The position numbers and the translations under genes are program-made. Below are positions 735 to 44,678 of a DNA stretch of 64,000 nt, in pieces (the first letter of the stretch is position 1; each line of letters starts with the position of its first letter). The notes below the pieces were generated by a model. The model searched no databases, was not told the DNA's origin, and was given only the letters and a program-made list of their open reading frames with translations. The stretch covers positions 7,068,001 to 7,132,000 of the forward strand of contig OX597827.1 in assembly GCA_951406725.2 (NCBI GenBank), given 5' to 3'. The stretch comes from Octopus vulgaris. Taxonomy: Eukaryota.

Positions 735-769
<35 letters not shown>

Positions 770-6291: not shown

Positions 6292-8688
6292 CTGTTCATG
6301 TTGTCTTAATGTCCGATTATCCCATCTATCACTTGGCATGGTTCTGCAGTAAGTATCTTCCTTATAAACCTGTGATTCTTGAGATGGCTTCAGATTTCTC
6401 GACATTGTGTACGAAATGCCAGGTGGAACACAGGTAGGATCAAATATATATTTTGATTGTACGTTTAATGCAGGTGTAACCTTGTGGTACATATCAACAC
6501 TGTTGTTATAGTTGCTGTCTGTCTGCTTCAGTCTATGAACTATACAGATCGATATAGAGATCACTATGACAACTGATACGATCACAGCTGCTACAACAAT
6601 AACAATCATCACATTCAATTGGAGACCATTACTTGATTCTGTTGTTGTCTTCGAAGGGGTCTTAAATATCTTTGATGTGCTGTTACTAACTGTTAGAGTC
6701 AAAGACAAAGTTGTTGTCGATGACAGAACTGGACTGCCACTGTCTTTCACACCTAATTCCAGTTCATAGAATCCAGCATCATTTTGGTAAAGTGAGCGAG
6801 AGAAAGATAAGACACCAGAGTGATGGTTCATTTGAAATAAGTGTTTCTCATTACCTCTGAGTATTTCATATGTGAGGAAGGCATTGTGTTGACTGTCTCT
6901 GTCAGAGGCCCTAACAACTGTGATATCCTGGTCAGAGTGGGGATGGTAGTGGACATTAAGACTGAAAGGGTCAACATTAGGGAAACTGAAATAGGGAGCA
7001 TTGTCATTTAAATCCATAACCTCAACAACAACATTTGCTCTCTTCTCCAGTGATGGTGTTCCTTTATCTTTTACTAAAACCTTAAACTCATATAGGTTCT
7101 TTTCTTCTCTGTCTAGGGACTCAGTTGTGGAAATGAATCCCACATCAGATATCTGAAATGGTAGAATATCTTTTCCATTAGATAATAGAGAATAGGTTAA
7201 TTGCCCTCCATCTCCAATATCTGGGTCTGTGGCATTGACTTGTCCAACAGGGAAGTCTTTGTGTTCATTTTCATAGGTGAGAAACTTAAATATGTCCTGA
7301 CTAAACTGAGGTTGTACATCATTTATGTCAGTAACCAGCATAGAAAACTGTTTCTCTACTTTCAATGGAGGTAAACCATTATCTTGACATTTAATGGTGA
7401 AATTAAATCTTTTCTCACTCTCTCTATCTATTTCACTCTTGACAACAACTTTGTATTTCGTTTCAGACTCTGAGATTAGCTGAAGGTATCTGTTTTGTAA
7501 ATGACAGTTCACTTGTCCATTTACTCCATTGTCATTGTCGGTAACTTTGACATAAGCAACAAAACTGCCAATTTTAGATGCTTCTGAGATGACAGCTGTT
7601 TTTCCAGTTGACTTAATGACAAATCTGAAGTCAATGTTTGGTGGATTGTTAAGATGAGTGATTCCATTTATTAGAACAGTAACAGTTGAGGACATAGGTG
7701 GTTTACCATTATCTCTGGCTTCAATAAATAGCTCATAAATTTTACCAAAATTAAAGTCTTTCTTCAAAAATACTTCTCCTGTTGCTTCATCTAATTGAAA
7801 GTACTCTTTTACCATTTTGGGTGTTTTAGCATTATTGAAGACATAAGAAATTCTTCCATTTTCTCCTACATCTAAATCTGTAGCAGACAACCTTACAACA
7901 GGTTTGTTTACATCATGTTTATCATTTATAGTGACATTGTAAATATTCTGGGAGAATACAGGGTAGTTATCGTTTTTATCTTCTACAAATATTTTTATAT
8001 CCAGTACACCTTCCTTTGATGGAGATCCTTCATCTTTAGCAATTAACCGAATATTGTAAATGTCTTTTGTCTCACGGTCCAAGTTACCCTCCAAAATTAG
8101 TTGTAATAGATCTGTTCCATCTGGTTTTTTAGAAACAAACACCTGAAATGGTATATCCACTTTCTCTTTGAGTTGGTAAGTTAGCTTAGAATTCTGAATG
8201 CTAATATCATTATCAATGGCATTTGGAAGTGTTTCTTTTCTTCCTTTTGTCATACTTTCATCATATTTTAAATGAAATTCTTTGTTTGGGAAAATAGGAT
8301 AATTATCATTGACATCTTCTATCATAACTTTGATTTCTAATATCTTAATAACAGAATGGCCTTCTTGAAGTGCCATTTCTAATATCCTGAAACATTCCAC
8401 ATTATATTGACATAGAGATTCTGCATCCAATATGGCAGCTGTGTACAGTTTTCCTCCAGGTGTAACATTGAATAACTGAACATTTTCCTCAGTACTACCC
8501 TGGAGTACATTAAATGTCAGTTTGTTGTTATCATCTTGAGTCTGCATATTATCCAATAAGTGTGTATCAGTGACAATATCTCCAATATAGCTGTGTATAT
8601 CATTGTTCTCTTTTACATGGTAGATATGGTCCACACACAGACAGCTTTCAGCTATCAATAGCAAAGCCAATAATTTCATTGGAAACAT
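6292..8688 (-). CDS. PCDH: Protocadherin gene 1, large coding exon (signal peptide, EC1-EC6, TM, juxtamembrane); spliced product ~946 aa
   Basis: 801-aa ORF with cadherin motifs (DVNDNYP, LDRE, DKNDNYP, DINDVQP, DLNDNAP, AxDxD), EC1 C-x5-C (LCQYNVEC) and TM VMIVIVVAAVIVSVVIVISISICIV; acceptor ttttcag before 8695; donor CAG|gtgaga at 6292. Confidence 0.97.
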
Positions 8689-8984
8689 TTTTGAACTGAA
8701 AAAAAAAAAAAATTTGACTTGAAATTCATATTAAAAAATGTGAATATAATAAATATAATGTAGCTTTTAATTCCATGAATTCAATCTCTAGTTTTAATTT
8801 GGTTTATGATATACTTATCAGAGAGAAAAAGATGTGTGTTTCCTTGTTCCCCTTTTATGTGACTGGTCGGTATTTCAAGAGTAACATCAGTCAGACATCA
8901 GCAACAATAAACATAGAAGTGCTGACATCAATCAAATTATTTGATGGAATTTGATTAACTTGCCTGAAATGAAAGCATATATAT

Positions 8985-9141
8985 GTGCAGGAGTGGCTGT
9001 GTGATAAGCTTACTTCCCAACAACATGGTTCTGAGTTCAGTCCCACTGTGTGGCACCTTGGTCAAGTCTCTTCAGTTACAGTCTAACCAAACACTTGTGG
9101 AAGGTATTTGAATATTTGGTAGATGGAAACAGAAAGAGGTC

Positions 9142-9193
<52 letters not shown>

Positions 9194-11124: not shown

Positions 11125-11415
11125 CAACAGTTGTCAGTTGTTTATATTGTTGTTAATGAACTTTTTCAAAGTTCTGGCAACACAAAGTTTTAATAGTGGC
11201 AGTAGTTCTGAGTAGTTTGGTATGTAATAGTTTTATATAGTACTATCAAGCTGGTTGTGTAGTATGTAATGTGTGTTGTAGCCAATGACAAGCTGTCTTT
11301 TATTCCAATGCAAGGAAACGGAAATACAGCCTCCAGTTCTTGCAGTAAATGATGGGCTGACTCACAAAATATTTCACTGAGACACACTCATGTATAGATA
11401 CATACATATACATGT
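11125..11415 (-). promoter_or_regulatory. Promoter block and non-coding first exon of gene 1
   Basis: Core 11311-11378; donor TTG|gtaagt at 11125, ~2.4 kb above the coding-exon acceptor. Confidence 0.75.
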
Positions 11416-12544
11416 GTGTGTTGTTAGAAGGTACCCAACTAAATGGATGGAAATATTAATAAGGTTTTAAGTAATGAAATATAAAATTAAAGTATATTAA
11501 AAATATATAATATTTTAATTTCAATGCATAAAAGTTATTTTCTAACTTCAGTCAAAGTTGCAAAACTTTTCATCTCAGATTTCTCTTTGGTTTTACAAAA
11601 TTATCTGCTTGAGACAAACTTGATAAATTTTATTGAATAATATTTTTAAAAGTTAATTTCCTTAAAAATTGTTGAACTCATTTGAAAATACGAAATTATG
11701 GCTCCAAATAATTGTGTTGAATAATGATTAGAAAATGGGCACTTATTTCTAATGTTCCTTGTAGAGAAATAAAAAGTATGAAATGGAAAATGTGTCTATG
11801 GAATTTTCACATTTGAGACTTAACATAAATATCAATTAAAATTGAAGCCTATCCATTAAATTAAGTAACAAATGGAATTCCTTTCTGATATATATATAAA
11901 TATATATAATGGATCTAATTTTCTTTTTCTTTCTTTTTATTTTTCGCCACCTTTTTGGAAAGCTAATCAAGAATGCATATTTTTTATATTTCTTTGAAAT
12001 GGTAATCTAATGCTGAAAATTTAGGAACAGAGAAAAGTATTTTGTATACTTTGACTACATAACAAAAATACTTTTAAGGAGAAGAAATATTGCTTTTCCA
12101 GGGCTTAGATAAAACTGTTTCTTTTTAAGTTTAAGTTAACTATTGAAATTATGCAAGTTTCAATAGATTTTATAAGAAAATGTCCAGAAAGTACAATGGA
12201 GAATTGTGTTATATATTTTTGTATAGCTTCCCTATGCATATATATATCCAGATATCTTCAGTATATATAATGATAACTTCAATAACGTACATAGTTATAA
12301 GTTTCTCAGTAAAAACTTTGGTAGATATCAACTGGTAGTTTGTGAGAATATTTCATTCTTAACTGTACCAGTCATGCCAAATACTTTGGTAATTCTGTCA
12401 TATTTTCTGTTTGTAATTCCTTAGTATAAATGAATTTACTTCAATTAAAGATTAAATAAGAAAAAATTATCATAAATTTATAACTTTATGAAATGTTATG
12501 ATGATGTTAATATTAATATTAAATTCTTTATAATTACTTTTCAT

Positions 12545-12628
12545 CAACCCCAAAAGGATGAAAGGCAAAGTCGACCTCTGTGGAATTTGAAATCAGAACA
12601 TAAAGACAGATGAAATACCACTAAGAAA
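12545..12628 (-). mobile_element. SINE family C fragment (paralogous copies ~21733-21890, 30770-30855, 39742-39828)
   Basis: aaaggatgaaaggcaaagtcgacctc core; flanked by ttataatt(a/c)cttttcat direct repeat; absent at the homologous site near 3825. Confidence 0.7.
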
Positions 12629-12900
12629 TTATAATTCCTTTTCATACTTTCATTGAGATATTTGTAGTAATAGACAAGCTCTACTTTTATATAAGATAAA
12701 ATTGTTTTTGGTCTTGTCTCTAGTAAGAGGAAGTAAAATTATGTAAGCTGCTAAAGAAGACTGGCAAATAATTGGCAAAGTCTTCTGTGGTAGAATACGA
12801 TTTGAAATTAGTACACAAATATAAGATACGGTCAGGATTTTAGGCAGTCCTTGTTCTAGTTTCTGCTGCTACCTGTCATTGGTTTCTAAATAGTGCAGCA

Positions 12901-13223
12901 TTAGTTCTGTGGTGCTGATAGAGGTGGTACTTGAGGTATTGAAGGTACCTTTGGTAATGTTGTTACTTTAGGTACAGCTGGCAGAAGTGGTTTACAGTTT
13001 GAAATAAAGGCACTTGTCATTGGCACCGTAGGTGATTGTTCAGTTGTATTAGATGTGGTCCCAGCTGTAGTGAAAGGTATTTGGTCGAGATGATAAGAAG
13101 GGTTCTTGTCGACATTTGGTTGGTAGGGATAGCCATTGTTGTTATCTCCCCTTGATCTGTCGAGAGTGTGTTGAGGGTGATTCCTTCTATTCCATGTATG
13201 ATCACTTTGATAACGACATAGAT
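12901..13223 (-). CDS. PCDH: Protocadherin gene 2, terminal coding exon
   Basis: cttccag acceptor, 323 nt, phase-1 open frame DLCRYQSD...PMTSAFISNCKPLLPAVPK...PQN*. Confidence 0.85.
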
Positions 13224-13689
13224 CTGGAAGTATATCGATTTATTGGCTGTTTTTTTTTCAGGCATAATGAATAAAAACAAACTGTTTTAAACAGGTTTAT
13301 AGCAAGGAAAAATCAAAGCATTATATTTTAACAAAAATTAGTATATTTTAACAAAAAAAAAAGCTATGCCCCAGCTATTCTGTCTAGAGTGAACACCATG
13401 CTCTGTGATATCTTGGGATTCAAGGGTCCACAGCTATTTAATGTCTCGTCCAAACATCTCAGGGATCTTCATGGAGTGGAGTAGATGTTTTCAAGGAATA
13501 ACTTGACCTCTTGCTATCCACTGTCCCAGATGAAACTGTATTACAGCAGGAAACTCAGGAGAGAGCAAACAGTGTTGGACTCCTTCCATCACTAAAAGCA
13601 AATCATGTAAGATTGGCCATTGAAAACATGATTTCAGCCTTAGCACAGAATCGTATAAATAAATAAATAAATTCCCGTTCAGGTGCCAA

Positions 13690-14030
13690 TCCCACTGCGT
13701 GGCACCTTGGGCAAGATCTTCTATAGCCTCGGGCCAACCAAAGCCTTGTGAGTGGATTTGGTAGACAGAAACTGAAAAGAAGCCCATCGTATATATGTAT
13801 ATATATATGTGTATATGTGTGCGTGAGTGTTTGTGTGTCTGTATTTGTCCTCCCAACATCGCTTGACAACCAATGCTGGTGTGTTTACATCCCCATAACT
13901 TAGCGGTTTGGCAAAAGAGACTGATAGAATAAGTACTAGGCTTACAAAGAATAAATCCTGGGTTCGATTTGCTCGACTAAAGGTGGTGCTCCAGCATGGC
14001 CGCAGTCATATGACCGAAACAAGTAAAAGA
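13690..14030 (+). mobile_element. 5'-truncated SINE family A in the last intron of gene 2
   Basis: Matches 525-946 body; same position in units 3-5. Confidence 0.8.
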
Positions 14031-14562
14031 TTATATATGTACAAGCTATACAAAGACAAAATTTGCTTTCACTTTTATGGTGAAGGCTCTAGCATGGCCG
14101 TGTGATGAAGAATTTCACTTCTCAACCACATGATTATAGGTTTAGTCCTCTACTGCTGTCTCAGACAAGTCAAATTCTTTTGAACGATAATACAAACAGA
14201 TAAAAGGGTGGAATACAGTCAATTTTCTGATAGTATTTATCATTCAAAAGTAATAATTGTGTGTTTGTCTCCTGACGTTGATAGTTGTCAGCAAGCATTG
14301 GCATCACACATGCTGTAGCATTCATTTCTAAGTTTTCATGAAAGCATGTCCAGCAAATGGAAAAATATTACCTTGCTTGGAAACAGTTGGGGGCAGGTGA
14401 CAAGAAGGCAAAAACGGTCATGAAATATCTGCCTCAAAGAATTCTATTCAACCCATGTTAGTATTCCAAAGTGGATTCAAAAGGATGATGATGATGGTAA
14501 CTAAATATAGACCAACAGATTATCATACTATATTAAAGAAATATTCATTTTTTCTAACTTAC

Positions 14563-14713
14563 CTGGCAGTTCCTCATAGTGACCAGCACTGCCGACACTC
14601 CATCCATGACCCCTATCAGTGCGAGATGACAACGTTGACATCTCATTGAATTGGTCAGTACTGTTTAGTTCCCTGTAACCAGGAGACATACTTTCTTCTC
14701 TTGGAACAAACAT
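14563..14713 (-). CDS. PCDH: Protocadherin gene 2, cytoplasmic exon 2
   Basis: 151 nt, AG/GTAAGT boundaries, MFVPREE...TDRGHGWS...HYEELP. Confidence 0.9.
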
Positions 14714-15101
14714 CTAAATAGAAATATATAGATTCAATGTATCATCATAATGTTAAGGGAATTCCAAAAATATATATGCGTAGAGAAACATCCACCTGTC
14801 CTCCATATCTACATGCACACACATAAAAGTGCATCATAGTGTCCTCAATATTTCGAAATAGAAATACATAAAATGAAATAAGACAAAATATTGCAAGTAA
14901 TTTATGACCATATTTAGAAAGTTTTCCTTGTCAATAGGAGTTGCAGTCAAACAAGAAAGGATATAATTTGCAATAAGAGCTAGAAATAAAAGATCCATGA
15001 ATTTAAAGAAATCATATTTAATAAGAAATACCAGAACAAAATATTACTCTGCAAACAACTCGTGATCAACCATTCAAACAACTGGTAATTAACTGGCTTA
15101 C

Positions 15102-17495
15102 CTGTTGATGCGGTTCAGAGAAAGATGGGTTACCCCAGCTATCATATGATATAGTTCTGCAGTGAATATCTTCTCTGTCTACCATTGGTTGATGAGATTT
15201 CTTTACATTTCTCTCCATTGTGCACTGAACTCCAGGAGGAACACAAGTAGGATCAAATATATATTTTGATTGTACGTTTAATGCAGGTGTAACCTTGTGG
15301 TACATATCAACACTGTTGTTATGGTTGTTGTCTGTCTGCTTCAGCCTATGAACTATACAGATTGATATAGAGATCACTATGACAACTGATACGATCACAG
15401 CTGCTATAACAATAACAATCATCACATTCAATTGGAGACCATTACTTGATTCTGTTGTTGTCTTTGAAGGGGTCTTAAATATCTTTGATGTGCTGTTACT
15501 AACTGTTAGAGTCAAAGACAAAGTTGTTGTCGATGACAGAACTGGACTGCCACTGTCTTTCACACCTAATTCCAGTTCATAGTATCCAGCATCATTTTGG
15601 TAAAGTGAGCGAGAGAAAGATAAGACACCAGAGTGATGGTTCATTTGAAATAAGTGTTTCTCATTACCTCTGAGTATTTCATATGTGAGGAAGGCATTGT
15701 GTTGGCTGTCTCTGTCAGAGGCCCTAACAACTGTGATATCATGGTCAGAGTGGGGATGGTAGTGGACATTAAGACTGAAAGGGTCAACATTAGGGAAACT
15801 GAAATAGGGAGCATTATCATTTAAATCCATAACCTCAACAACAACATTTGCTCTCTTCTCCAGTGATGGTGTTCCTTTATCTTTTACTAAAACCTTAAAC
15901 TCATATAGGTTCTTTTCTTCTCTGTCTAGGGACTCAGTTGTGGAAATGAATCCCACATCAGATATCTGAAATGGTAGAATATCTTTTCCATTAGATAATA
16001 GAGAATAGGTTAATTGTCCTCCATCTCCAATATCTGGGTCTGTGGCATTGACATATCCAACAGGGAAGTCTTTGTGTTCATTTTCATAGGTGAGAAACTT
16101 AAATATGTCCTGACTAAACTGAGGTTGTACATCATTTATGTCAGTAACCAGCACAGAAAACTGTTTCTCTACTTTCAATGGAGGTAAACCATTATCTTGA
16201 CATTTAATGGTGAAATTAAAGCTCTTCTCACTCTCTCTATCTATTTCACTCTTGACAACAACTTTGTATTTCTTTCCAGATAATGAGATTAGCTGAAGGT
16301 ATCTATTTTGTAAATGACACTTCACTTGGCCATTTACTCCATTGTCATTGTCAATAACTTTGACATAAGCAACAAAACTGTGAATTTTAGTTCCTTCTGA
16401 GATGACAGCTGTGTTTCCAGTTGACTCTATAACAAATTTAAGATCAATGTTTGGTGGATTGTTGAAATAACTGATTCCATTAATAAGAACAGTGACAGGT
16501 GAAGACAATGAAGGGCTACCATTATCTCTGGCTTCAATAAATAGCTCATAAATTTTACCAAAATTAAAGTCTTTCTTCAAAAATAATTCTCCTGTTGCTT
16601 CATCTAATTGAAAGTACTCTTTTACCATTTTGGGTGTTTTAGCATTATTGAAGACATAAGAAATTCTTCCATTTTCTCCTACATCTAAATCTGTAGCAGA
16701 CAACCTTACAACAGGTTTGTTTACGTTATGTGTATCATTTATAGTGACATTGTAAATATTCTGGGAGAATACAGGGTAGTTATCGTTTTTATCTTCTACA
16801 AATATTTTTATATCCAATACACCTTCCTTTGACGGAGATCCTTCATCTTTAGCAATTAACTGAATATTGTAAGTGTCTTTTGTCTCACGGTCCAAGTTAC
16901 CTTCCAAAATTAGTTGTAATAGATCAGTTCCATCTGGTTTTTTAGAAACAAACAGCTGAAATGGTATATCCACTTTCTCTTTGAGTTGATAAGTTAGCTT
17001 AGAATTCTGAATGCTAATATCATTATCAATGGCATTTGGAAGTGTTTCTTTTCTTCCTTTTGTTGCACTTTCACCATATTTTAGAGGAAATTCTTTGTTT
17101 GGGAAACTAGGATAATTATCATTGACATCTTTTATCATAACTTTGATTTCTAATATCTTGAAGAAAGAATGGCCATGCTGAACAGCAATTTCTAACATCC
17201 TGAAACATTCCACATTATATTGACACAGAGATTCTGCATCCAATATGGCAGCTGTGTACAGCTGTCCTCCAGGTGTAACATTGAATAACTGAACACCATC
17301 AGTGCTACCCTGGAGTATTTTAAATGTCAGTTTGTCGCTGTTGTCTTGAGACTGTATATCATCCAGTAAGTGTGTATCAGTGACAATATCTCCAATAAAG
17401 CTGTGTATATCATTGTTCTCTTTCACATGGTAGGTATGATCCACGCACCAGCAGTTATGAACAAGGAACAACACCAACAATACACCTGGAAACAT
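15102..17495 (-). CDS. PCDH: Protocadherin gene 2, large coding exon; spliced product ~955 aa
   Basis: Six cadherin repeats plus TM; ATG at 17495 (ORF track starts at an upstream TTG); acceptor tttcag before 17502; donor CAG|gtaagc at 15102. Confidence 0.97.
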
Positions 17496-18098
17496 TTTCA
17501 ATCTGAAATAGAATTTTGTATTGATATTAATTATTCAAGTTTTAATACTACAGAGAAATTCTAATTAGAAATTTTGTTACATAAACTTAATGTTTACACT
17601 CATTTTGATTTGTAGATTTTTAAGAAATTTGAAAGTGTGTATAGAAATGTTCTCTTTTATTTGTTAGATATAATTGATGCATATTTAGTTGTTATACACC
17701 AAAACCAAGAAATAACCCATTGATATTGCAGAGGACAGGTGTAAATTGTTCTCTGTTTTTCTTTTCTATACGACTTTACCTATGATAAAACAAGAGGTAT
17801 TTCATCACCGTTGCCCTCTTGTTAACAGCTTTATCAATTTACTTATACAAACTTACATATTCTACACATGCTTGGTAACTCAGTTAAATAAATTATTGAA
17901 GCATTACCAATTTTTGCTGTATCTGCTATAATATACAACTGAGTTCAAGTTGGTGTTTGAACTGGCATTGCATGTGTGAACTAAACGAAAGTAAAACATG
18001 TGGTACAGCTGTGAACATGTGTCTTTGTTTATAAACCACATGTATGTCAAATTGGCTGCTGATGAAATTGTAATGATGACTAAAACCACAATCCAAGT

Positions 18099-18294
18099 GT
18101 GACTGCGTGTGTACCATTGGCGATTTTTTTTCCTCTGTCTTCCCTTCTCTGGATCTTTCCTTCTATGCTTCCGACGAAGAGCTCCGCTCGAAACGTTAAA
18201 CCCTCCTTCTTTCCTGAGCGTCCAATAAAACTATATTTGTTCCACGTCCTTGCGTTTTGGTGTTTTTTTGTGCTTTCGTGTTTGGATTAACTTT
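18099..18294 (+). mobile_element. 196-bp insertion with a degenerate minimal hammerhead-like motif (probable Penelope-like pLTR fragment)
   Basis: Absent at homologous empty sites (~27338, ~36312); contains CCGACGA-A-GAGC-tcc-GCTC-GAAA-CGT-TA at 18171-18198. Confidence 0.6.
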
Positions 18295-23803: not shown

Positions 23804-23954
23804 CTGGCAGTTCCTCATAGTGCCCAGCACTACCGACACTCCATCCATGACCCCTATCAGTGCGAGATGACAATGTTGACATCTCACTGAATTGGTCAGA
23901 ACTGTTTAGTTCTCTGTAACCAGGAGACATACTTTCTTCTCTTGGAACAAATAT
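23804..23954 (-). CDS. PCDH: Protocadherin gene 3, cytoplasmic exon 2
   Basis: 151 nt, AG/GTAAGT boundaries, IFVPREE...HYEELP open. Confidence 0.9.
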
Positions 23955-32769: not shown

Positions 32770-32920
32770 CTGGCAGTTCCTCATAGTGTCCAGCACTGCC
32801 GACACTCCATCCATGACCCCTATCAGTGCGAGATGACAATGTTGACATCTCACTGAATTGGTCAGAACTGTTTAGTTCTCTGTAACCAGGAGACATACTT
32901 TCTTCTCTTGGAACAAATAT
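32770..32920 (-). CDS. PCDH: Protocadherin gene 4, cytoplasmic exon 2
   Basis: 151 nt, AG/GTAAGT boundaries, open frame. Confidence 0.9.
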
Positions 32921-33310
32921 CTAAATACAAATATATAGATTCAATGTATCATCATAATGTTAAGGGAATTCCAAAAATATATATGCGTAGAGAAACATCC
33001 ACCTGTCCTCCATATCTATATGCACACACATAAATTCTGCATCATAGTGTCCTCAATATTTCGAAATAGAAATACATAAAATTGAAATAAGATTAAATAT
33101 TGCAAGTAAGTTATGACAATACTTAGAAAGTTTTAGTTGTCAATAGGAGTTGCAGTCAAACAAGAAATAAAATAATTTGCAATAAGAGCTAGAAATAAAA
33201 GATCCATGAATTTAAAGAAATCATATTAAATAAGAAATACCAGAACAAAATATTACTCTGCAAACAACTCGTGATCAACCATTCAAACAACTGGTAATTA
33301 ACTGTCTTAC

Positions 33311-35707
33311 CTGTTGATGCGGTTCAGAGAAAGATGGGTTACCCCAGCTATCATAGGATATAGTTCTGCAGTGAATATCTTCTCTGTCTACCATTGGTTG
33401 TTGGGGTTTCTTCAGATTTCTCTCCATTGTGTACTGAACTCCAGGAGGAACACAAGTAGGATCAAATATATATTTTGATTGGGTGTTTAATGCAGGTGTA
33501 ACCTTGTGGTACATATCAACACTGTTGTTATAGTTGCTGTCTGTCTGCTTCAGTCTATGAACTATACAGATTGATATAGAGATCACTATGACAACTGATA
33601 CGATCACAGCTGCTACAACAATAACAATCATCACATTCAATTGGAGACCATTACTTGATTCTGTTGTTGTCTTTGAAGGGGTCTTAAATATCTTTGATGT
33701 GGTGTTACTAACTGTTAGAGTCAAAGACAAAGTTGTTGTCGATGACAGAACTGGACTGCCACTGTCTTTCACACCTAATTCCAGTTCATAGAATCCAGCA
33801 TCATTTTGGTAAAGTGAGCGAGAGAAAGATAAGACACCAGAGTGATGGTTCATTTGAAATAAGTGTTTCTCATTACCTCTGAGTATTTCATATGTGAGGA
33901 AGGCATTGTGTTGACTGTCTCTGTCAGAGGCCCTAACAACTGTGATATCATGGTCAGAGTGTGGATGGTAGTGGACATTAAGACTGAAAGGGTCAACATT
34001 AGGGAAACTGAAATAGGGAGCATTATCATTTATATCCATAACCTCAACAACAACATTTGCTCTCTTCTCCAGTGATGGTGTTCCTTTATCTTTTACTAAA
34101 ACCTTAAACTCATATAGGTTCTTTTCTTCTCTGTCTAGGGACTCAGTTGTGGAAATGAATCCCACATCAGATATCTGAAATGGTAGAATATCTTTTCCAT
34201 TAGATAACAGAGAATAGGTTAATTGTCCTCCATCTCCAATATCTGGGTCTGTGGCATTGACATATCCAACAGGGAAGTCTTTGTGTTCATTTTCATAGGT
34301 GAGAAACTTAAATATGTCCTGACTAAACTGAGGTTGTACATCATTTATGTCAGTGACCAGCACAGAAAACCGTTTCTCTACTTTCAATGGAGGTGAACCA
34401 TTATCTTGACATTTAATGGTGAAATTAAAGCTCTTCTCTCTCTCTCTATCTATTTCACTCTTGACAACAACTTTGTATTTTTTTCCAGATAATGAGATTA
34501 GCTGAAGATATTTATTGTGTAAATGACAGTTCACTTGTCCATTTACTCCATTGTCATTGTCAGTAACTTTGACATAAGCAACAAAACTGTGAATTTGAGT
34601 TCCTTCTGAGATGACAGCTGTGTTTCCAGTTGACTCTATAACAAATTTAAGATCAATGTTTGGTGGATTGTTGAAATAACTGATTCCATTAATAAGAACA
34701 GTGACAAGTGAAGACAATGAAGGGCTACCATTATCTCTGGCTTCAATAAATAGCTCATAAATTTTACCAAAATTAAAGTCTTTCTTCAAAAATACTTCTC
34801 CTGTTGCTTCATCTAATTGAAAGTACTCTTTTACCATTTTGGGTGTTTTAGCATTATTGAAGACATAAGAAATTCTTCCATTTTCTCCTACATCTAAATC
34901 TGTAGCAGACAACCTTACAACAGGTTTGTTTACCTCGTGTGTATCATTTATAGTGACATTGTAAAAATTCTGGGAGAATACAGGGTAGTTATCGTTTTTA
35001 TCTTCTACAAATATTTTTATATCCAGTACACCTTCCTTTGATGGAGATCCTTCATCTGTAGCGATTAACCGAATATTGTAAATGTCTTTTGTCTCACGGT
35101 CTAAGTTACCTTCCAAAATTAGTTGTAATAGATCAGTTCCATCTGGTTTTTTAGAAACAAACAATTGGAAAGGTATATCTATTTTCTCTTTGAGTTGGTA
35201 AGTTAGCTTAGAATTCTGAATGCTAATATCATTATCAATGGCATTTGGAAGTGTTTCTTTTCTTCCTTTTGTCATACTTTCATCATATTTTAAATGAAAT
35301 TCTTTGTTTGGGAAAATTGGAGAATTATCATTGACGTCTTCTATCATAACTTTGATTTCTAATAACTTGAAGAAAGAATGGCCATGCTGAACAGCAATTT
35401 CTAACATCCTGAAACATTCCACATTATATTGGCACAAAGATTCTGCATCCAATATGGCAGCTGTGTACAGTTTCCCTCCAGGTGTAACATTAAACAACTG
35501 AACACTTCCATCGGTATTACCCTGGAGTATTTTAAATGTCAGTTTGCTGCTCTCAACCTTAGACTGTATATCATCCAATAAGTGTGTATCAGTGATAATA
35601 TCTCCAATATAACTGTGTATATCATTGTTCTCTTTCACATGGTAGGTATGATCCACACACCAGCAGTTATGAACATGGAATAACACCAACAATACACCTG
35701 GAAACAT
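33311..35707 (-). CDS. PCDH: Protocadherin gene 4, large coding exon; spliced product ~956 aa
   Basis: Six cadherin repeats plus TM; ATG 35707; acceptor before 35714; donor CAG|gtaaga at 33311. Confidence 0.97.
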
Positions 35708-36893
35708 TTTCAATCTGAAATAGAATTTTGTATTGATATTAATTAATCAGGTTTTAATACTACAGAGAAATTCTAACTAGAAATTTTGGTACATGAACTT
35801 TATCTTTACATTCATTTTGGATTTGTAGATTTTTAAGAAACTTGAAAGTGTGTATAGAAATGTTCTCTTTAATTTTTTGGATATAATTGATGCATATTTA
35901 GTTGTTATACACCCAAACCAAGAAATAACCCATTGATATTGCAGAGGACAGGTGTAAATTGTTCTCTGGTTTATTTTTTCTATACGACTTCACCTAATAT
36001 AAAAGAAGAGGTATTTCATCACCATTGCCCTCTAAAGTTAACAGCTTTATCAATTTACTTATACAAACTTTCATATTCTACACATGCTTGGTAACTCAGT
36101 TAAATAAATTATTGAAGCATTACCAATTTTTGCTGTATATGCAATAATATACAACTGAGTTCAAGTTGAAGTTTGAACTGGCATTGCATGTCTGAACTAA
36201 ACGAAAGTAAACATGTGGGACAGCTGTGAACATGTGTCTTTGTTTATAAACCACATGTATGTCAAATTGGCTGCTGGTGAAATTGTAATGATGACTAAAA
36301 CCACAATCCAAGTAATTTCTCTTATTTTTGCATTTGGTAAAGTAAACCAAGAGCTCTATCTAAAATTGTGAAGATACAGTGCTGGCTAAAATCTATAGAT
36401 TTTTTTTTTTGTGTTGTATACTTATAGAGTAGCATTAAATATTTAAGATATAAATGATAATGCATGCACACACACACACACACATACATGTATAGGAATG
36501 AGTTTGTGGATATGTGTGTGTGTCTATATGCACATGCACATCATGTAAAGTGTTGTGACCATATTGCCTTAATAAAAAAAAATATAAGCGTGGTATATCA
36601 AGAAACTTAAGAAATTATTAACCTGACATTGATTTTATAGACAGAGCAGACTTATTATTCTTTTATTGTAATGTCTTCTTTCAGGTTGATATGGCTGTTT
36701 TGTCTGAGTTATATTCTTTCCTTTTTACAAGTTACAGTAATTGTATTGTAGTCAAGGATATTTCTTAGGCTATATTGATCCTGGTATTTGAGCAACTTCA
36801 CAAGACACAAAAAGTAGTCTGAGGCTCAAAAGGAAATAAATGAAGTGGAACAAAATACCACCAACATACATATTGGGGTGAAATAGATGGATA

Positions 36894-37196
36894 GTGGAGG
36901 CACATGGCCTAGTGGTTAGAGCAGTGGACTTGCTGTTGAGGGATCGTGGGTTCGAATTTCCGACCGGGCGATGAGTGTGTTTATGAGCGGAACACCTAAG
37001 CTCCACGTGGCTCCAGCAGAAGGTAATGGCGAAACTTCTGCTGACTCTTTCGCTCACTCTTTCCTCCTGCATCTTGCAGCTCACCTGCGACGGACTGGCG
37101 TCCCGTCCAGGTGGGGAACCTATATGCCATGGAAACCAGGAAACCGGCCCTTATGAGCCAGGCATGGCTCAACAAGGAGCGAGCAAAAAAAAAAAG
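36894..37196 (+). mobile_element. SINE family B, intron 1 of gene 4
   Basis: Near-identical to 27918-28220. Confidence 0.85.
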
Positions 37197-38392
37197 TTCC
37201 AAGAGGCTGCTGAGTTTCCATTGATCAAATTTTTTTAACAAGGCTATGGACAACATCCATCTATGACACAAGATTGTTGCCCATGTTTTCTGACTGTCTT
37301 ATTCAACATATTTGACCAAGAACCATGTTCGCCTGAAAATAATTATTGATCACACAGCCATGTCTGAGTCCAATATGTTGATCACTGAGTTACTTCTCTC
37401 TATGAAAATATCTTACCAAACGATTCCCATTCCCCAGAATATCCATCATTCCATTATTTCCATATCTTCCCTACACCAATTCAGTCATAACTGAATACAG
37501 GAATGTCTCTGTGTGACATCCTTGGTGACAAAGTCTCATCTTTAAAATGACAATTTCGTATACACTTGTTCTGAAGATATCATGCCACTGTATCAACTCT
37601 CCTGATATTACATATCTGAATACAAATCTAAAAGAGACATTAAGAATGGCAACCAATTGATGTGTAACACCAGACAAACACTGACCAAATGAAAGGCACT
37701 CAAACTAAGAACTTCACGTTCTTTTAAAAGTATTCTATGCCAGCATAGAAAGTAGCCGTTCAATGCTGATGATGATTTCTTGAATACCATAAGATGCAGT
37801 ATTTCTAATTGGAAGCGTGTGATTTTGATAGATATCTGGTTGCTATTTCTAGCAAGTCCAAGAATTCATTAAGGGTATTAATTTATTAAGAGTAACCTCC
37901 CTTACTTTCAAAACTACTTCATGGTCCAATTTCTCAGATGTTGAATTTAATAATCTTGTGAAAACAAGTTAGTCAAATATTTTACAATGTAAACTAAATA
38001 CTTGATAAACTATTCAACTAACATTACCTAAAACAATTCTCATCAATACATCCCGCCTATTACATCCAAATCTATCAACTTATCCTATGCTAGATGGTTA
38101 AACTGACAGTATTGTAAAAAAAGAGAGAAAACAATATATATTTTTTTAAAGAATGTAAATATTAAAATAATTCTAAACTTTGTTTGTGTTTTGCTGAAAA
38201 TTCCATCTCAAGTATTTATTGAAAATATATATAAAATGTCTTTAGAAAATGGCATTGCTGTACAGGAAGTAATTAACAATCTGATTTTGCTATGGGTGTA
38301 GTTTTAGCAAAATGGTAGTTTATAGGAAGTGAAATGACCAAACATCAACAGAAACAATTTACACAGCAGAATGACTTTTAATAAATACTTAC

Positions 38393-38681
38393 CAACAGTT
38401 GTCAGTCGTTTATACAGTTGTTACTGTATTGTTTCAGTGTTCTGGTAACAAAGATATGGTACTAGCAGAAGTTCTGAGTAGTTTGGTATGTGACAGTGTT
38501 ATGTAGTTCTATGGAGTTGGTTGTGTAGTATGTAATGTGTGTTGTAGCCAATGACAAGCTGTCTTTTATTCCAGTGCAAGGAAACGGAAATACAGCCTCC
38601 AGTTTTTGCAGTAAATGATGGGCTGACTCACAAAATATTTCACTAAAACACACTCATGTATAGATACATACATATACATGT
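38393..38681 (-). promoter_or_regulatory. Promoter block and non-coding first exon of gene 4
   Basis: Core 38577-38644; donor at 38393. Confidence 0.75.
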
Positions 38682-40101
38682 GTGTGGTGAGAAGAAACCC
38701 AGATAAATGGATGGAAATATTAATAAGGTTTTAAGTAATGAAATATAAAATTAAAGTATATTAAAAATATATCATATTTTAATTTTATGGTAGAAAAATT
38801 ATTTTCTAACTTCAGTCAGAGTTGCAAAACTTTTTATCTTATATTTCCCTCTGGTTTTACAAAATTGTTTGCTTGAAACATCCTTAATAAATGTTATTAA
38901 ATAATATTTTTAGAAGTTAATTTCATTAAATAATTGTTGAGCTCATTTGAAAATACGAAATTATGGCTCCAAATAATTGTGTTGAATAATGATTGCAATA
39001 TGGTTTGTTCTTACAAGTGTTCCTATTACAGAACTAATCCTTTTAAAATGGAAATAAAAATTTCTAAATTTCACAATTGAAACTTAACATAAATATTTAT
39101 TAAAATTGAAGCCTATCCATTAAATGTCATTACAAATGGAATTCCTTTCTGATATATATATAAATATATAAAATGTATCTAATTTTCTTTTATTTTTTTT
39201 GCCCACCTTTTTGGAAAGCTAATCAATAATGCTTATTTTTTATATTGCTATGAAATGGTAATCTAATGCTGTTAACTATTGAAATTATGCAATCTTCAAT
39301 AGTTTTTCTAAGAAAATTTCTAGAAACTATAATGGAGAATTGTGTTATATATTTTTGTATAGCTTTCCTATGCATATACATCCAGATATCTTCAATATAT
39401 ATATATATGCTAGTGGATGTTAAATGATGACGATAATGATATATATATCCTGATAGTTTCAGTAATATACATGGTTATAAGTTTCTCAGTAAAAACTTTG
39501 GTAGATATCAACTGGTAGTTTGTGAGAATATTTCGTTCTTAACTGTACCAGTCATGCCAAATACTTTGGTAATTCTGTCATATTTTCTTTTGATGATTTC
39601 GTGGTGTAAATATATTTACTTTGATTAAAGACTAAATAAGAAAAAAATTATCTATTTTGGTGAAAATGTATCATAAATTTATAACTTTAAGAAATATTAT
39701 GACGATGTTAATATTAATATTAAATTCTTTATAATTACTTTTCATCAACCCCAAAAGGATGAAAGGCAAAGTCGACCTCAGTGGAATTTGAAATCAGAAC
39801 GTAAAGACAGACGAAATACCACTAAGCAATTTGAATTCCTTTTCATACTTTCATTGAGATATTTGTAGTAATAGACAAGCTCTACTTTTATATAAGATAA
39901 AATCGTTTTTGGTATTGTCTCTAGTAAGAAGAAGTAAAATTATGTAAGCTGCTAAAGAAGACTGGCAAATAATTGGCAAAGTCTTCTGTGGTAGAATACG
40001 ATTTGAAATTAGTACACAAATATAAGATACGGTCAGGATTTTAGGCAGTCCTTGTTCTAGTTTCTGCTGCTACCTGTCATTGGTTTCTAAATAGTGCAGC
40101 A

Positions 40102-40424
40102 TTAGTTCTGTGGTGCTGATAGAGGTGGTACTTGAGGTATTGAAGGTACCTTTGGTAATGTTGTTACTTTAGGTACAGCTGGCAGAAGTGGTTTACAGTT
40201 TGAAATAAAGGCACTTGTCATTGGCACCGTCGATGATGGTTCAGTTGTATTAGATGTGGTCCCAGCTGTAGTCAAAGGTATTTGGTCGAGATGATAAGAA
40301 GGGTTCTTGTCAACATTTGGTTGGTAGGGATATCCATTGTTGTTATCTCCCCTTGATCTGTCGAGAGTGTGTTGAGGGTGGTTTCTTCTATTCCATGTAT
40401 GATCACTTTGATAACGACATAGAT
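40102..40424 (-). CDS. PCDH: Protocadherin gene 5, terminal coding exon
   Basis: 323 nt, homologous acceptor, frame and TAA. Confidence 0.85.
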
Positions 40425-40869
40425 CTGGAAGTATATCGATTTATTGGCTGTTTTTTTTTTCAGGCATAATGACAAAAAGCAAACGGTTTTAAACAGGTTT
40501 ATAGCAAGGAAAAATTAAAGCATTATATTTTAACAAAAAAAAAAGCTATGCCCCAGCTATCCTGTCTAGAGTGAGCGCCATGCTCTGTGATATCTTGGGA
40601 TTCAAGGGTCCACAGCTATTTAATGTCTCGTCCAAACATCTCAGGGATCTTCATGGAGTGGAGAAGATGTTTTCAAGGAATAACTTGACCTCTTGCTATC
40701 CACTGTCCCAGATGAAACTGTATTACAGCAGGAAACTCAGTAGAGAGCAAACAGTGTTGGACTCTTTCCATCACTAAAAGCAAATCATGTAAGATTGGCC
40801 ATTGTAAACATGATTTCAGCCTTAACACAGAATCGTATAAATAAATAAATAAATTCCCGTTCAGGTGCC

Positions 40870-41210
40870 AATCCCACTGCGTGGCACCTTGGGCAAAATC
40901 TTCTATAGCCTCGGGCCAACCAAAGCCTTGTGAGTGGATTTGGTAGACAGAAACTGAAAAGAAGCCCATCGTATATATGTATATATATGTGTATATGTGT
41001 GCGTGAGTGTTTGTGTGTCTGTGTTTGTCCTCCCAACATCGCTTGACAACCAATGCTGGTGTGTTTACATCCCTGTAACTTAGCGGTTCGGCAAAAGTGA
41101 CTGATAGAATAAGTACTAGGCTTACAAAGAATAAGTCCTGGGTTCGATTTGCTCGACTAGAGGCGGTGCTCTAGCATGGCCACAGTCATATGACTGAAAC
41201 AAGTAAAAGA
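40870..41210 (+). mobile_element. 5'-truncated SINE family A in the last intron of gene 5
   Basis: Paralogous to 13690-14030. Confidence 0.8.
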
Positions 41211-41741
41211 TTATATATGTACAAGCTATACAAAGACAAAATTTGCTTTCACTTTTATGGTAAAGACTCTAGCATGGCCGTGTGATGAAGAATTTCAATT
41301 CTCAACAACATGATTATAGGTTTAGTCCTCTACTGCTGTCTCAGACAAGTCAAATTCTTTTGAATGATAATACAAACAGATAAAAGGGTGGAATACAGTC
41401 AATTTTCTGATAGTATTTATCATTCAAAAGTAATAATTGTGTGTTTGTCTCCTGACATTGATAGTTGTCAGCAAGCATTGGCATCACACATGCTGTAGAA
41501 TTCATTTCTAAGTTTTCATGAAAGCATGTCCAGCAAATGGAAAAATATTACCTTGCTTGGAAACAGTTGGGTGCTGGTGACAAGAAGGCAAAAACGGTCA
41601 TGAAATATCTGCCTCAAAGAATTCTATTCAATCCATGTTAGTATTCCAAAGTGGATTAAAAAGGATGATGATGATGGTAACTAAATATAGACCAATAGAT
41701 TATCATACTATATTGAAGAAATATTTATTTTTCTAACTTAC

Positions 41742-41892
41742 CTGGCAGTTCCTCATAGTGACCAGCACTGCCGACACTCCATCCATGACCCCTATCAGTG
41801 CGAGATGACAATGTTGACATCTCACTGAATTGGTCAGAACTGTTTAGTTCTCTGTAACCAGGAGACATACTTTCTTCTCTTGGAACAAACAT
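41742..41892 (-). CDS. PCDH: Protocadherin gene 5, cytoplasmic exon 2
   Basis: 151 nt, AG/GTAAGT boundaries, open frame. Confidence 0.9.
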
Positions 41893-42281
41893 CTAAATAC
41901 AAATATATAGATTCAATGTATCATCATAATGTTAAGGGCATTCCAAAAATATATATGCGTAGAGAAACATCCACCTGTCCTCCATATCTACATACAGACG
42001 CAAAAAAGTGCATCATAGTGTCCTCAATATTTCGAAATAAAAATACATAAAATTGAAATAAGACAAAATATTGCAATTAAGTTATGACCATACTTAGAAA
42101 GTTTTAGTTGTCAATAGGAGTTGCAGTCAAACAAGAAATAATATAATTTGCAATAAGAGCTAGAAATAAAAGATCCATGAATTTAAAGAAATCATATTTA
42201 ATAAGAAATACCAGAACAAAATATTACTCTGCAAACAACTCGTGATCAAACATTCAAACAACTGGTAATTAACTGTCTTAC

Positions 42282-44678
42282 CTGTTGATGCGGTTCAGTG
42301 AAAGATGGGTTACCCCAGCTATCATATGATATAGTTCTGCAGTGAATATCTTCTCTGTCTACCATTGGTTGTTGGGATTTCTTCAGATTTCTCTCCATTG
42401 TGTACTGAACTCCAGGAGGAACACAAGTAGGATCAAATATATATTTTGATTGGATGTTTAATGCAGGTGTAACCTTGTGGTACATATCACCACTGTTGTT
42501 ATGGTTGTTGTTGTCTGTCTGCTTCAGCCTATGAACTATACAGATTGATATAGAGATCACCATGACAACTGATACGATCACAGCTGCTATAACAATAACA
42601 ATCATCACATTCAATTGGAGACCATTACTTGATTCTGTTGTTGTCTTTGAAGGGGTCTTAAATATCTTTGATGTGGTGTTACTAACTGTTAGAGTCAAAG
42701 ACAAAGTTGTTGTCGACGACAGAACTGGACTGCCACTGTCTTTCACACCTAATTCCAGTTCATAGAATCCAGCATCATTTTGGTAAAGTGAGCGAGAGAA
42801 AGATAAGACACCAGAGTGATGGTTCATTTGAAATAAGTGTTTCTCATTACCTCTGAGTATTTCATATGTGAGGAAGGCATTGTGTTGACTGTCTCTGTCA
42901 GAGGCCCTAACAACTGTGATATCATGGTCAGAGTGGGGATGGTAGTGGACATTAAGACTGAAAGGGTCAACATTAGGGAAACTGAAATAGGGAGCATTAT
43001 CATTTAAATCCATAACCTCAACAACAACATTTGCTCTCTTCTCCAGTGATGGTGTTCCTTTATCTTTTACTAAAACCTTAAACTCATACAGGTTCTTTTC
43101 TTCTCTGTCTAGGGACTCAGTTGTGGAAATGAATCCCACATCAGATATCTGAAATGGTAGAATATCTTTTCCATTAGATAAAAGAGAATAGGTTAATTGT
43201 CCTCCGTCTCCAATATCTGGGTCTGTGGCATTGACATATCCAACAGGGAAGTCTTTGTGTTCATTTTCATAGGTGAGAAACTTAAATATGTCCTGACTAA
43301 ACTGAGGTTGTACATCATTTATGTCAGTAACCAGCACAGAAAACCGTTTCTCTACTTTCAATGGAGGTAAACCATTATCTTGACATTTAATGGTGAAATT
43401 AAAGCTCTTCTCACTCTCCCTATCTATTTCACTCTTTACAACAACTTTGTATTTCTTTTCAGACTCTGAGATTAACTGAAGGTATTTATTTTGTAAATGG
43501 CACTTCACTTGTCCATTTACTCCATTGTCATTGTCGTTAACTTTGACATAAGCAACGAAGCTGTGAATTTTTGTTCCTTCTGAGATGACAGCTGCTTTTC
43601 CAGTTGACTTAATGACAAATCTAAAGTCAATGTTTGGTGGATTATTCAAGTGTGTGACACCATTTATTAGAACAGTAACAGTTGAGGACATAGGTGGTTT
43701 ACCATTATCTGTGGCTTTAACAAACACTTTATAGAATCTTCCAAACTGAAATTCTGTTGTTACAAATAGTTCTCCAGTTACTTTATTCAACCGAAAACAT
43801 TCTTTTATCTTATTAGGTGTTTTAGTACTAAAAGTATAAGAAATTCTTTGATTCTCTCCAATATCCGAATCTGTTGCAGACAATCTTAGAACAGGTATGT
43901 TTGTCTGGTGTATATCATTGATAGTGATGTTATAGATATTCTGGGAGAACACTGGGGAATTATCATTTTCATCTTGTACTGATATCATTATATCCAGTAC
44001 ACCTTCCTTTTGCGGAGATCCTCCATCTTTTGCAATCAACTGAATATTATAAATGTCTTTTTTCTCACAATCTAATGTACCTTTTAAAATTAGTTGTAAT
44101 AAATCATTCCCATCTGAATTATTAGATATAAACAATCGAAATGGAATATCTCCACTATCATAGAGTCGATAAATCAGTTTAGAATTTTGAATACTGACAT
44201 CATTATCAATGGCATTTGGAATAATCCTTTTTGAACCTATTAATAGACTTTCTGGTAAATTTATTTGAAATACCTTGTCTAAAAACATAGGATAATTATC
44301 ATTAACATCATCTATTACAACTTTGACTTCTAATATCTTGATAACAGAATGGCCTTCTTGAACTGCTACTTCCAAAATCCTGAAGCATTCCACATTATAT
44401 TGGCACAATGTTTCTGCATCCAATATGGCAGCGGTATACAAGTGTCCTCCAGGTGTAACATTAAATAACTGAACAGTTCCATCTGTACTATCCTGGATTA
44501 CATTAAATATTAGTCTGCTGCTATCACCCTGAGATGGTACAGTATTCAGCAGTTGTGTATCAGTGGCAATATCTCCAATATAGCTGTGTCTATCATTGTT
44601 CTCTTTCACATGGTAGGTATGATCCACACACCAGCAACTTCCAGAAAGAAACAACACCAACAATCCAACTGGACTCAT
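42282..44678 (-). CDS. PCDH: Protocadherin gene 5, large coding exon (divergent EC2-EC3); spliced product ~956 aa
   Basis: 810-aa ORF, six cadherin repeats plus TM; acceptor before 44685; donor CAG|gtaaga at 42282. Confidence 0.97.

What the first reader, a model, noticed from the sequence alone, without database searches (positions are those of the whole stretch)
6292..44678. Patchwork ectodomains: EC5-EC6-TM homogenised, EC1-EC4 shuffled among paralogues
Seen: from about VTDINDVQP to the TM all five proteins are almost identical. Gene 1 shares EC2-EC3 with genes 2-4 but shares separate patches with gene 5 only: QEGHSVIKILE in EC1, NGKPPMSSTVTVLING.THLNNPPNIDFRFVIKSTGK at ~7600-7705 vs ~43595-43702, and ISESE in EC4. 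Gene 5 alone has a very different EC2-EC3 (~43710-44290). Known: in vertebrate clustered Pcdhs, EC1-4 make the trans interface, EC2-3 carry much of the specificity, EC5-6 make promiscuous cis dimers, and gene conversion homogenises part of the ectodomain. Inference: domain-scale gene conversion generates combinatorial recognition codes with the same partition, convergently.
Basis: partly seen in the sequence, partly recalled or inferred. Interest (0 to 1): 0.8.

Follow-up and report, generated by a model that had tools for sequence, protein, structure and literature searches.

The report
Octopus protocadherins homogenised except EC2-EC3
In a tandem array of octopus nerve-cell adhesion genes, the membrane-near domains are kept almost identical between copies while the middle pair of domains stays very different, which likely reflects copy-to-copy gene conversion that spares the probable recognition part, a pattern known from an independently evolved vertebrate array.

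Summary
The window holds five complete Octopus vulgaris protocadherin genes. In detail: EC5-EC6 differ at 5-9 of 630 nt in all 10 pairs, silent sites included, even for gene 1, whose introns are unalignable to the others; gene 5's EC2-EC3 core differs at about 25%. Across the subfamily in three Octopus species and Argonauta, EC2-EC3 group by cross-species orthology while EC5-EC6 group by lineage (reciprocal AU rejection). In Argonauta EC1/4/5/6 are 95-99% identical around EC2-EC3 at 54-56%; ordinary orthologues are flat (85-91%). This is concerted evolution with a protected EC2-EC3 island, resembling mouse Pcdh-alpha, in an independently expanded family. Other octopod subfamilies repeat it; O. 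bimaculoides shows it weakly. The 'combinatorial shuffling' reading is only partly right: EC2 and EC3 mostly travel together, genes 1-4 share nearly the same EC2-EC3, and the gene 1/5 patches are partly states that genes 2-4 lost. Recognition and cis-dimer functions are untested. Conversion in cephalopod Pcdhs was already suggested; I found no domain-resolved description in seven library searches, but could not read Albertin 2015.

The parts
6292..8688 (-). Gene 1 large coding exon (signal peptide, EC1-EC6, TM, proximal tail); equals CAI9732434 residues 1-800; donor CAG|GTGAG at 6292/6291
15102..17495 (-). Gene 2 large coding exon; O. sinensis counterpart XP_036365121 (EC1-EC6 95-100%)
24335..26731 (-). 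Gene 3 large coding exon
33311..35707 (-). Gene 4 large coding exon; 97% to first unit of O. sinensis XP_029644520
42282..44678 (-). Gene 5 large coding exon; equals CAI9732435/436 residues 1-800; 5' flank to EC3 is its own lineage, 3' part is like genes 2-4
6685..7314 (-). EC5-EC6 homogenised tract in gene 1 (gene 5: 42681-43310); 5-9 of 630 nt differences in all pairs; near-identity continues through the TM to about 6472 / 42465
7708..8301 (-). Gene 1 EC2-EC3 core shared with genes 2-4 (17-19 of 594 nt; 7708-7911 0-1 of 204) although gene 1 flanks and introns are unalignable to theirs
43704..44294 (-). Gene 5 divergent EC2-EC3 core (143-148 of 591 nt vs g1-g4; dS about 0.64-0.71, omega about 0.33 over EC2-3)
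7600..7707 (-). EC3 end/EC4 start patch shared by gene 1 and gene 5 (43596-43703), 8 of 108 nt; also in the O. sinensis counterpart of gene 1
8335..8373 (-). EC1 patch (QEGHSVIKILE region) shared by gene 1 and gene 5 (44328-44366), 2 of 39 nt
12135..43600 (-). About 3.5 recent 9-kb tandem units (93-95% identical overall) holding genes 2-4 and the 3' part of gene 5; likely products of unequal crossing over
5854..6004 (-). Gene 1 second coding exon (151 nt); copies at 14563-14713, 23804-23954, 32770-32920, 41742-41892; each gene has its own, so there is no shared constant exon
4089..4378 (-). Gene 1 third coding exon (approximate end); copies begin at about 13223, 22487, 31449, 40424
11254..11420 (-). 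167-nt near-invariant non-coding core 2.4-3.0 kb upstream of each ATG, followed about 130 nt later by a conserved donor-like TTG|GTAAGT; copies 2400-2566, 20501-20667, 29544-29710, 38520-38686, 47126-47292; likely promoter and non-coding first exon

Best explanation
This octopus protocadherin array has EC5-EC6-TM nearly identical in all copies, silent sites included, and EC2-EC3 kept as a divergent linked block, likely because repeated gene conversion and unequal crossing over homogenise the exon while selection likely removes exchanges that overwrite EC2-EC3, the probable binding-specificity module. Shown: EC5-EC6 follow lineage and EC2-EC3 follow cross-species orthology; gene 1 shares EC2-EC3 with genes 2-4, and gene 5 shares its whole 3' half with them. 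Inferred: the identical EC4-EC6 stretch serves as the crossover platform that duplicates genes and swaps 5' halves (promoter to EC3) onto other 3' halves, EC1 and EC4 receive short tracts, and new specificities come mainly from slow divergence of the EC2-EC3 block, only occasionally from recombination inside it. By homology to vertebrate Pcdhs (EC1:EC4 and EC2:EC3 antiparallel dimer in clustered and non-clustered forms) each EC2-EC3 type would be one recognition class, so genes 1-4 would bind alike or nearly so and gene 5 differently. The binding geometry is probably inherited; the conversion landscape is convergent.
For: Silent sites: EC5-6 dS 0.02-0.04 in all 10 pairs vs EC2-3 dS 0.64-0.71 for g5 pairs. 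g1 introns and 5' flank differ at about 50% in forced alignments, yet EC5-6 differ at 7-9 of 630 nt. Within-species median aa identity EC1/2/3/4/5/6: O. vulgaris 79/62/61/84/99/99 (13 units), O. sinensis 83/62/60/86/100/99 (13), Argonauta 95/56/54/96/99/99 (7), while O. vulgaris vs Argonauta EC5/EC6 is only 80/86. Control: 30 of 40 Argonauta representatives outside the subfamily had an octopus partner at >=78% in EC2-3 and are flat, 87/88/85/91/89/90. AU tests on 38 sequences: EC2-3 rejects an O. vulgaris+O. sinensis clade (dlnL 356, p 1e-92); EC5-6 rejects two cross-species orthogroups (dlnL 38, p 0.008). Among 101 other octopod Pcdh representatives 39 pairs have EC5-6 >=90% with EC2-3 <=75%, 1 pair the reverse (EC2-3 >=85%, EC5-6 <=80%). 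An island flanked on both sides by homogenised EC1 and EC4 (Argonauta; also group Ah0091/97/106 at 93/73/77/98/99/100) is not a simple 5'-3' gradient. Short-read contigs of three DNA runs collapse EC5-6 into long high-depth pieces with few differences. Mouse Pcdh-alpha 96/69/59/85/98/84 (PMC4978886 Table 1). Octopod and vertebrate units fall in separate clades, about 30% identical.
Against: No functional data; omega in EC2-3 is about 0.33, so no positive selection is shown. O. bimaculoides is only weakly homogenised: within-species EC5/EC6 92/93, no higher than against O. vulgaris 93/95, on partly fragmentary models. EC5-6 are also more conserved than EC2-3 across unrelated octopod Pcdhs (66-69/71-76 vs 54-56/51-53), so constraint contributes. 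The orthologue control was selected on EC2-3 identity, which favours flatness. The 39 pairs are not independent (about four groups), and one O. sinensis group is identical to the C-terminus and could share exons. EC2-3 is not fully protected: g1 shares it with g2-g4, 11 subfamily pairs show EC2/EC3 identities differing by >=15 points, and EC2 and EC3 each reject the other's own tree. The vertebrate pattern is not universal: lungfish, manta and coelacanth arrays that I measured were flat. DNA was available only for the five window genes; the family tests are on proteins.
Confidence: 0.62

Rival explanations
1. Neutral recombination landscape: EC4-EC6 is homogenised because it is the most alignable stretch and conversion is self-reinforcing, while EC2-EC3 passed a divergence barrier by drift; the pattern says nothing about a recognition code.
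For: Background constraint makes EC5-6 more alignable; omega in EC2-3 about 0.33; whole 3' halves with introns are exchanged among g2-g5; g1-g4 share EC2-3 without apparent cost.
Against: Background identity of EC1 (50-54%) is no higher than EC2-3, yet EC1 is homogenised to 95% in Argonauta next to EC2 at 56%; the island falls on EC2-EC3 in several subfamilies and in mouse Pcdh-alpha; EC2-3 types persist as orthogroups across three Octopus species.
Confidence: 0.22
2. One reading: conversion shuffles EC1, EC2-3 and EC4 patches among paralogues and is itself the main generator of combinatorial recognition codes.
For: EC1 and EC4 histories are uncoupled from EC2-3 (Mantel EC1~EC2 not significant in 4 of 4 species); O. 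vulgaris/O. sinensis counterparts often differ more in EC4 (85-93%, one 99%) than in EC3; significant tracts within EC1-EC4 in most pairs; some EC2/EC3 discordant pairs.
Against: EC1 and EC4 are the less variable domains and are nearly uniform in Argonauta (95, 96%); EC1~EC4 co-vary in only 1 of 4 species; EC2 and EC3 are linked; one unrooted topology fits EC1-EC4 in the five genes.
Confidence: 0.12
3. Recent whole-gene duplication plus purifying selection on EC5-EC6, without conversion.
For: g2-g4 are recent 9-kb duplicates; EC5-6 omega is low, 0-0.39.
Against: Silent sites are homogenised; g1 introns are unalignable; EC5 differs by 20% between Octopus and Argonauta while 99% within each.
Confidence: 0.02
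4. Assembly or polishing artefact producing mosaic or collapsed copies.
Against: The same domain pattern appears in gene models of four species; O. sinensis has counterparts of g1, g2 and g4 including the g1 mosaic; each copy has private differences in EC5-6; independent runs show EC5-6 collapse.
Confidence: 0.02

Closest known systems
Vertebrate clustered protocadherins (alpha, beta, gamma) with domain-biased gene conversion (Noonan et al. 2004, seen second-hand in PMC4978886)
   Same: Tandem array, one large exon for six EC domains plus TM; lowest dS in EC5/EC6 and highest in EC2/EC3; Argonauta profile 95/56/54/96/99/99 resembles mouse alpha 96/69/59/85/98/84.
   Different: Separate clade at about 30% identity; every gene has its own tail exons, so no shared constant exons; whole-gene unequal crossovers including introns; a likely non-coding first exon 2.4-3 kb upstream; binding, cis dimers and stochastic promoter choice untested.
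Coleoid cephalopod protocadherin superclusters (PMC9068888, PMC6339937, PMC9795677)
   Same: This is a sub-array of that expansion (O. vulgaris CAI9732423-436); these papers already name duplication and, in two of them, gene conversion as possible causes of similarity.
   Different: The passages I read give no domain-resolved analysis; PMC9795677 has no occurrence of 'conversion' and dates expansions by paralogue distance.
Vertebrate non-clustered delta-protocadherins (Pcdh10, 17, 18, 19 structures)
   Same: Among the top solved six-domain relatives (Pcdh10 6vg4 E 1.5e-77, about equal to Pcdh-gamma-B4 6e6b); share the EC1-4 antiparallel trans dimer (PMC10084454).
   Different: They are dispersed genes reported not to form cis dimers; which cis behaviour the octopus proteins have is open.

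Membership tests
Protocadherin (octopod clustered subfamily) | Signal peptide, six cadherin repeats, one TM, ectodomain in a single large exon | tested here: met
Protocadherin (octopod clustered subfamily) | Head-to-tail tandem whole-gene duplicates, homologous to annotated octopod Pcdhs | tested here: met
Vertebrate clustered Pcdh alpha/beta/gamma | Phylogenetic nesting among vertebrate clustered Pcdhs | tested here: not met
   23 octopod + 2 clam units separate from 18 vertebrate units, SH-aLRT 100, midpoint root, no delta sequences included
Vertebrate clustered Pcdh alpha/gamma | Variable exons spliced to shared constant exons | tested here: not met
   each of the five genes has its own exons 2 and 3 with splice sites; transcripts not examined
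Vertebrate clustered Pcdh conversion landscape | EC5/EC6 lowest and EC2/EC3 highest synonymous divergence among paralogues | tested here: met
   DNA, five genes; clear for g5 pairs, EC1/EC4 exceed EC2-3 among g1-g4; proteins, four species
Vertebrate clustered Pcdh | Positive selection in EC2-EC3 | tested here: inconclusive
   pairwise omega 0.26-0.49; site models not run
Vertebrate clustered Pcdh | Strict homophilic EC1-EC4 trans binding with specificity in EC2-EC3 | not testable with these tools
   inferred from homology only (PMC7811963, PMC10084454)
Vertebrate clustered Pcdh | Promiscuous EC5-EC6 cis dimers | not testable with these tools
   open; see Tried and rejected
Vertebrate clustered Pcdh | Conserved promoter element with CTCF sites and stochastic promoter choice | tested here: inconclusive
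   a 167-nt near-invariant upstream core exists in six copies; no CTCF motif scan or expression test was run
Concerted evolution by gene conversion | Paralogues within a lineage closer than orthologues between lineages over a bounded tract, silent sites included | tested here: met
   weak in O. bimaculoides

The most novel reading that the evidence does not exclude
Octopods independently rebuilt the whole vertebrate neuronal-barcode logic from whole-gene duplicates: a conversion-proof EC2-EC3 block gives isoform-specific trans recognition, homogenised EC5-EC6 lets any two isoforms pair in cis, and near-identical 167-nt promoter cores give each copy an equal chance of expression.
Probability: 0.2. 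Interest if true: 0.88.

Novelty: new variant of a known kind. Interest (0 to 1): 0.62.

Why it matters
Whether cephalopod protocadherins act as a vertebrate-style identity code is open; the papers read make no functional claim or lean towards cell sorting. The sequence pattern points to EC2-EC3 as the part evolution keeps distinct, in arrays that expanded independently of vertebrates, and supplies natural chimeras for a direct test (genes 1-4 with near-same EC2-EC3 but different EC1/EC4; gene 4 vs gene 5 with the same EC5-tail but different EC2-EC3). It also implies that gene counts overstate the number of recognition classes, that whole-gene paralogue distances (such as the 8-14 Ma burst in PMC9795677) could be biased young where conversion acts, and that short reads from EC5-EC6 cannot be assigned to isoforms.

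Tried and rejected
Whole genome not held, so no DNA for the rest of the cluster. Complex prediction of two EC5-EC6 copies of gene 5 gave no answer (score 0.00, alignment not used); it is not evidence either way. HMMER search of 50% representatives returned mostly long multi-cadherin proteins and no squid Pcdhs, so decapodiforms are untested; it did yield vertebrate arrays used (two bonefish proteins gave no full-length unit and were dropped). GC3 is lowest in EC2-EC3 (0.16-0.26) and higher in EC1, EC5, EC6 (0.28-0.38), the direction expected from biased conversion, but untested and possibly domain-specific. Cross-testing free domain trees is biased by arbitrary resolution of the EC5-6 star, so constrained tests were run instead. 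No Rfam match in the window. No earlier scan findings by place or words. Contig depth is not copy number and gaps in cover were not used. Rows dropped before the family counts: Ov434/435/436 (same as g1, g5), Ov429, Os4856, Os4520_5/6, Os5489u_1/2/4, Ob9025, Ob9033, ObH7U2, ObFTL5, Ob5616D as apparent duplicates of kept genes, and fragments Os5087, Ob7066_2; Ob7066_4 and ObFTE7 may still be one gene. Searches used the 36 of 48 units with EC2-EC6 cover plus 2 outgroups. Literature searches; Albertin 2015 not held.


Full report
What the window is. Five intact minus-strand reading frames of 801-810 aa encode six-domain protocadherins. Gene 5 matches Octopus vulgaris CAI9732435/436 and gene 1 CAI9732434 over 800 residues. 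Each gene has its own second and third coding exon with splice sites, so these are whole-gene duplicates without shared constant exons. Genes 2-4 sit in 9-kb units that are 93-95% identical.

The observation. EC5-EC6 differ at 5-9 of 630 nt in all 10 pairs; gene 5's EC2-EC3 core (43704-44294) differs at 143-148 of 591 nt from genes 1-4, which differ among themselves at 16-28 of 594. A permutation test of my own modelled on GENECONV found a significant tract in 10 of 10 pairs over the exon and at the floor value in 7 of 10 within EC1-EC4.

It is conversion, not constraint or youth. dS in EC5-6 is 0.02-0.04 for every pair but 0.64-0.71 in EC2-3 for gene 5 pairs. Gene 1 is an old paralogue: its introns and 500 nt upstream of the ATG differ from the others at about half of positions in forced alignments, its tail exons at 10-14%, yet it is 1% from them in EC5-6 and 0-1 of 204 nt from genes 2-4 in the EC3 core. 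Gene 5 is the reverse case: upstream flank and EC1-EC3 are its own, but from about EC4 through both introns and tail exons it is mostly 95-99% like genes 2-4. Genes 3 and 4 are about 0-2.5% apart upstream but up to 9% downstream. I infer unequal crossovers within the identical EC4-EC6 stretch as well as shorter conversion tracts; direction and order cannot be fixed from this window.

The family test. From I cut 48 non-redundant units (13 O. vulgaris, 13 O. sinensis, 15 O. bimaculoides, 7 Argonauta hians; dropped rows in Tried and rejected). Median within-species identity for EC1-EC6 is 79/62/61/84/99/99, 83/62/60/86/100/99, 77/61/59/82/92/93 and 95/56/54/96/99/99; O. vulgaris vs Argonauta EC5/EC6 is 80/86. 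EC2 and EC3 trees recover the same cross-species groups. On 38 sequences EC2-3 rejects an O. vulgaris+O. sinensis clade (dlnL 356, AU 1e-92), EC5-6 rejects two orthogroups (dlnL 38, AU 0.008), and EC1+EC4 rejects neither. Outside the subfamily, 30 of 40 Argonauta representatives with a close octopus partner are flat across domains, 87/88/85/91/89/90 (chosen on EC2-3). Among 101 other representatives 39 pairs have EC5-6 >=90% with EC2-3 <=75% and 1 pair the reverse; they fall in about four groups, one of which could share exons. Against: O. bimaculoides is weakly homogenised, and EC5-6 are somewhat more conserved than EC2-3 across all octopod Pcdhs.

Artefact check. O. sinensis models include counterparts of genes 1, 2 and 4; the gene 1 counterpart has the same EC2-EC3 and the same EC3/EC4 patch, though its EC1 and ISESE patches differ.

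The topology ((g1,g5),g2,(g3,g4)) is not rejected in EC1, the EC2-3 core, the patch or EC4; it is rejected in EC5-TM and the distal tail. The gene 1/5 motifs recur in 4-7 of 48 units, while the gene 2-4 motifs are nearly confined to that clade, so the patches are partly retained states, although 7% divergence beside 25% still suggests an older exchange at the EC3/EC4 border. EC2 and EC3 distances correlate in all four species (r 0.54-0.69); EC1 with EC4 in one; EC1 with EC2 in none. Exchange inside EC2-3 does occur (11 discordant pairs; each domain rejects the other's free tree). Overall conversion erases differences around a mostly linked block rather than permuting four domains. Omega in EC2-3 is 0.26-0.49, with no sign of positive selection at this resolution.

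Mechanism. Shown: bounded, lineage-specific homogenisation and a divergent EC2-EC3 island. From the literature: vertebrate clustered and non-clustered Pcdhs bind in trans by EC1:EC4 and EC2:EC3, only clustered ones dimerise in cis through EC5-6 (PMC10084454; PMC7811963), and EC2/EC3 escape conversion (PMC4978886). Inferred: the octopus EC2-EC3 block sets binding class and selection removes tracts that overwrite it; the island flanked by homogenised EC1 and EC4 in Argonauta argues against a plain gradient. A neutral divergence-barrier model remains the main rival. EC5-6 homogeneity needs no cis-dimer explanation.

Comparison. The octopod units form a clade apart from 18 lungfish, manta and coelacanth units at about 30% identity, so this works like, but is not, a vertebrate clustered Pcdh. 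Those vertebrate arrays were flat across domains, so the vertebrate partition is itself lineage-dependent. PMC9068888 and PMC6339937 mention conversion in cephalopod Pcdhs in one general sentence each; PMC9795677 does not; the bioRxiv atlas 10.1101/2022.01.24.477459 reports cell-type-enriched Pcdh expression. For all seven papers I saw term-search passages only (with Table 1 and the head of Table 2 of PMC4978886), no supplements. Albertin 2015 was not held; Noonan 2004 and Wang and Ragsdale 2017 are known to me only through citations. Seven searches showed no domain-resolved cephalopod analysis; the library lacks most subscription journals, so prior description is not excluded.

Side finding. 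A 167-nt non-coding core lies 2.4-3.0 kb upstream of each ATG, with a sixth copy at 2400-2566 for a gene presumably left of the window. Copies differ at 0-9 of 167 nt while the 450 nt upstream differ by 14-38% between lineages; a donor-like site follows and an acceptor-like AG lies just before each ATG. It is likely a promoter and first exon, kept alike by constraint or conversion.

Verdict. Real, stronger at family scale than in the window, a new variant of a known kind; function untested. Interest 0.62.

Noticed in passing
window 2400-2566, 11254-11420, 20501-20667, 29544-29710, 38520-38686, 47126-47292 (-): Near-invariant 167-nt upstream core (0-9 differences) in flanks 14-38% diverged between lineages; contains TGAGTCA and ATTGG words (AP-1 and CCAAT labels recalled, not tested); followed by a conserved donor, GC instead of GT in the gene 5 copy. 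Candidate counterpart of the vertebrate Pcdh promoter element.
   Followed up: partly
window 7704-7911: The contig over the EC3 core has about 3.7 times the depth of a piece at the exon start in run X3 but about the same depth in X1; a weak hint of copy-number variation of genes 2-4 between animals (depth is not copy number).
   Followed up: no
proteins P0090, P0100, P0108, P0112 (O. sinensis) and P0093, P0115, P0117, P0119 (Argonauta): A second subfamily near-identical from EC4 to the C-terminus with variable EC2-EC3; either long conversion tracts or variable exons on shared exons; DNA not available to decide.
   Followed up: partly
window 15102-35707: No O. vulgaris annotated protein above 97% identity to genes 2, 3 or 4 was among those retrieved, although their frames and splice sites are intact; they may be missing from the annotation.
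   Followed up: no
gene 1 6295-6420 and subfamily tails: The distal part of exon 1's cytoplasmic segment diverges again (gene 1 vs others 37-41 of 126 nt) and does not track EC2 type, so recognition blocks and tails appear to be recombined.
   Followed up: partly
window 528-947, 8980-9413, 13687-14040, 22950-23280, 31888-32247, 40869-41220, 58113-58520, 59583-59984: A dispersed repeat of about 400 nt in both orientations, probably a transposon fragment; no Pcdh match beyond 44.7 kb, so gene 5 is the last copy on that side within the window.
   Followed up: no
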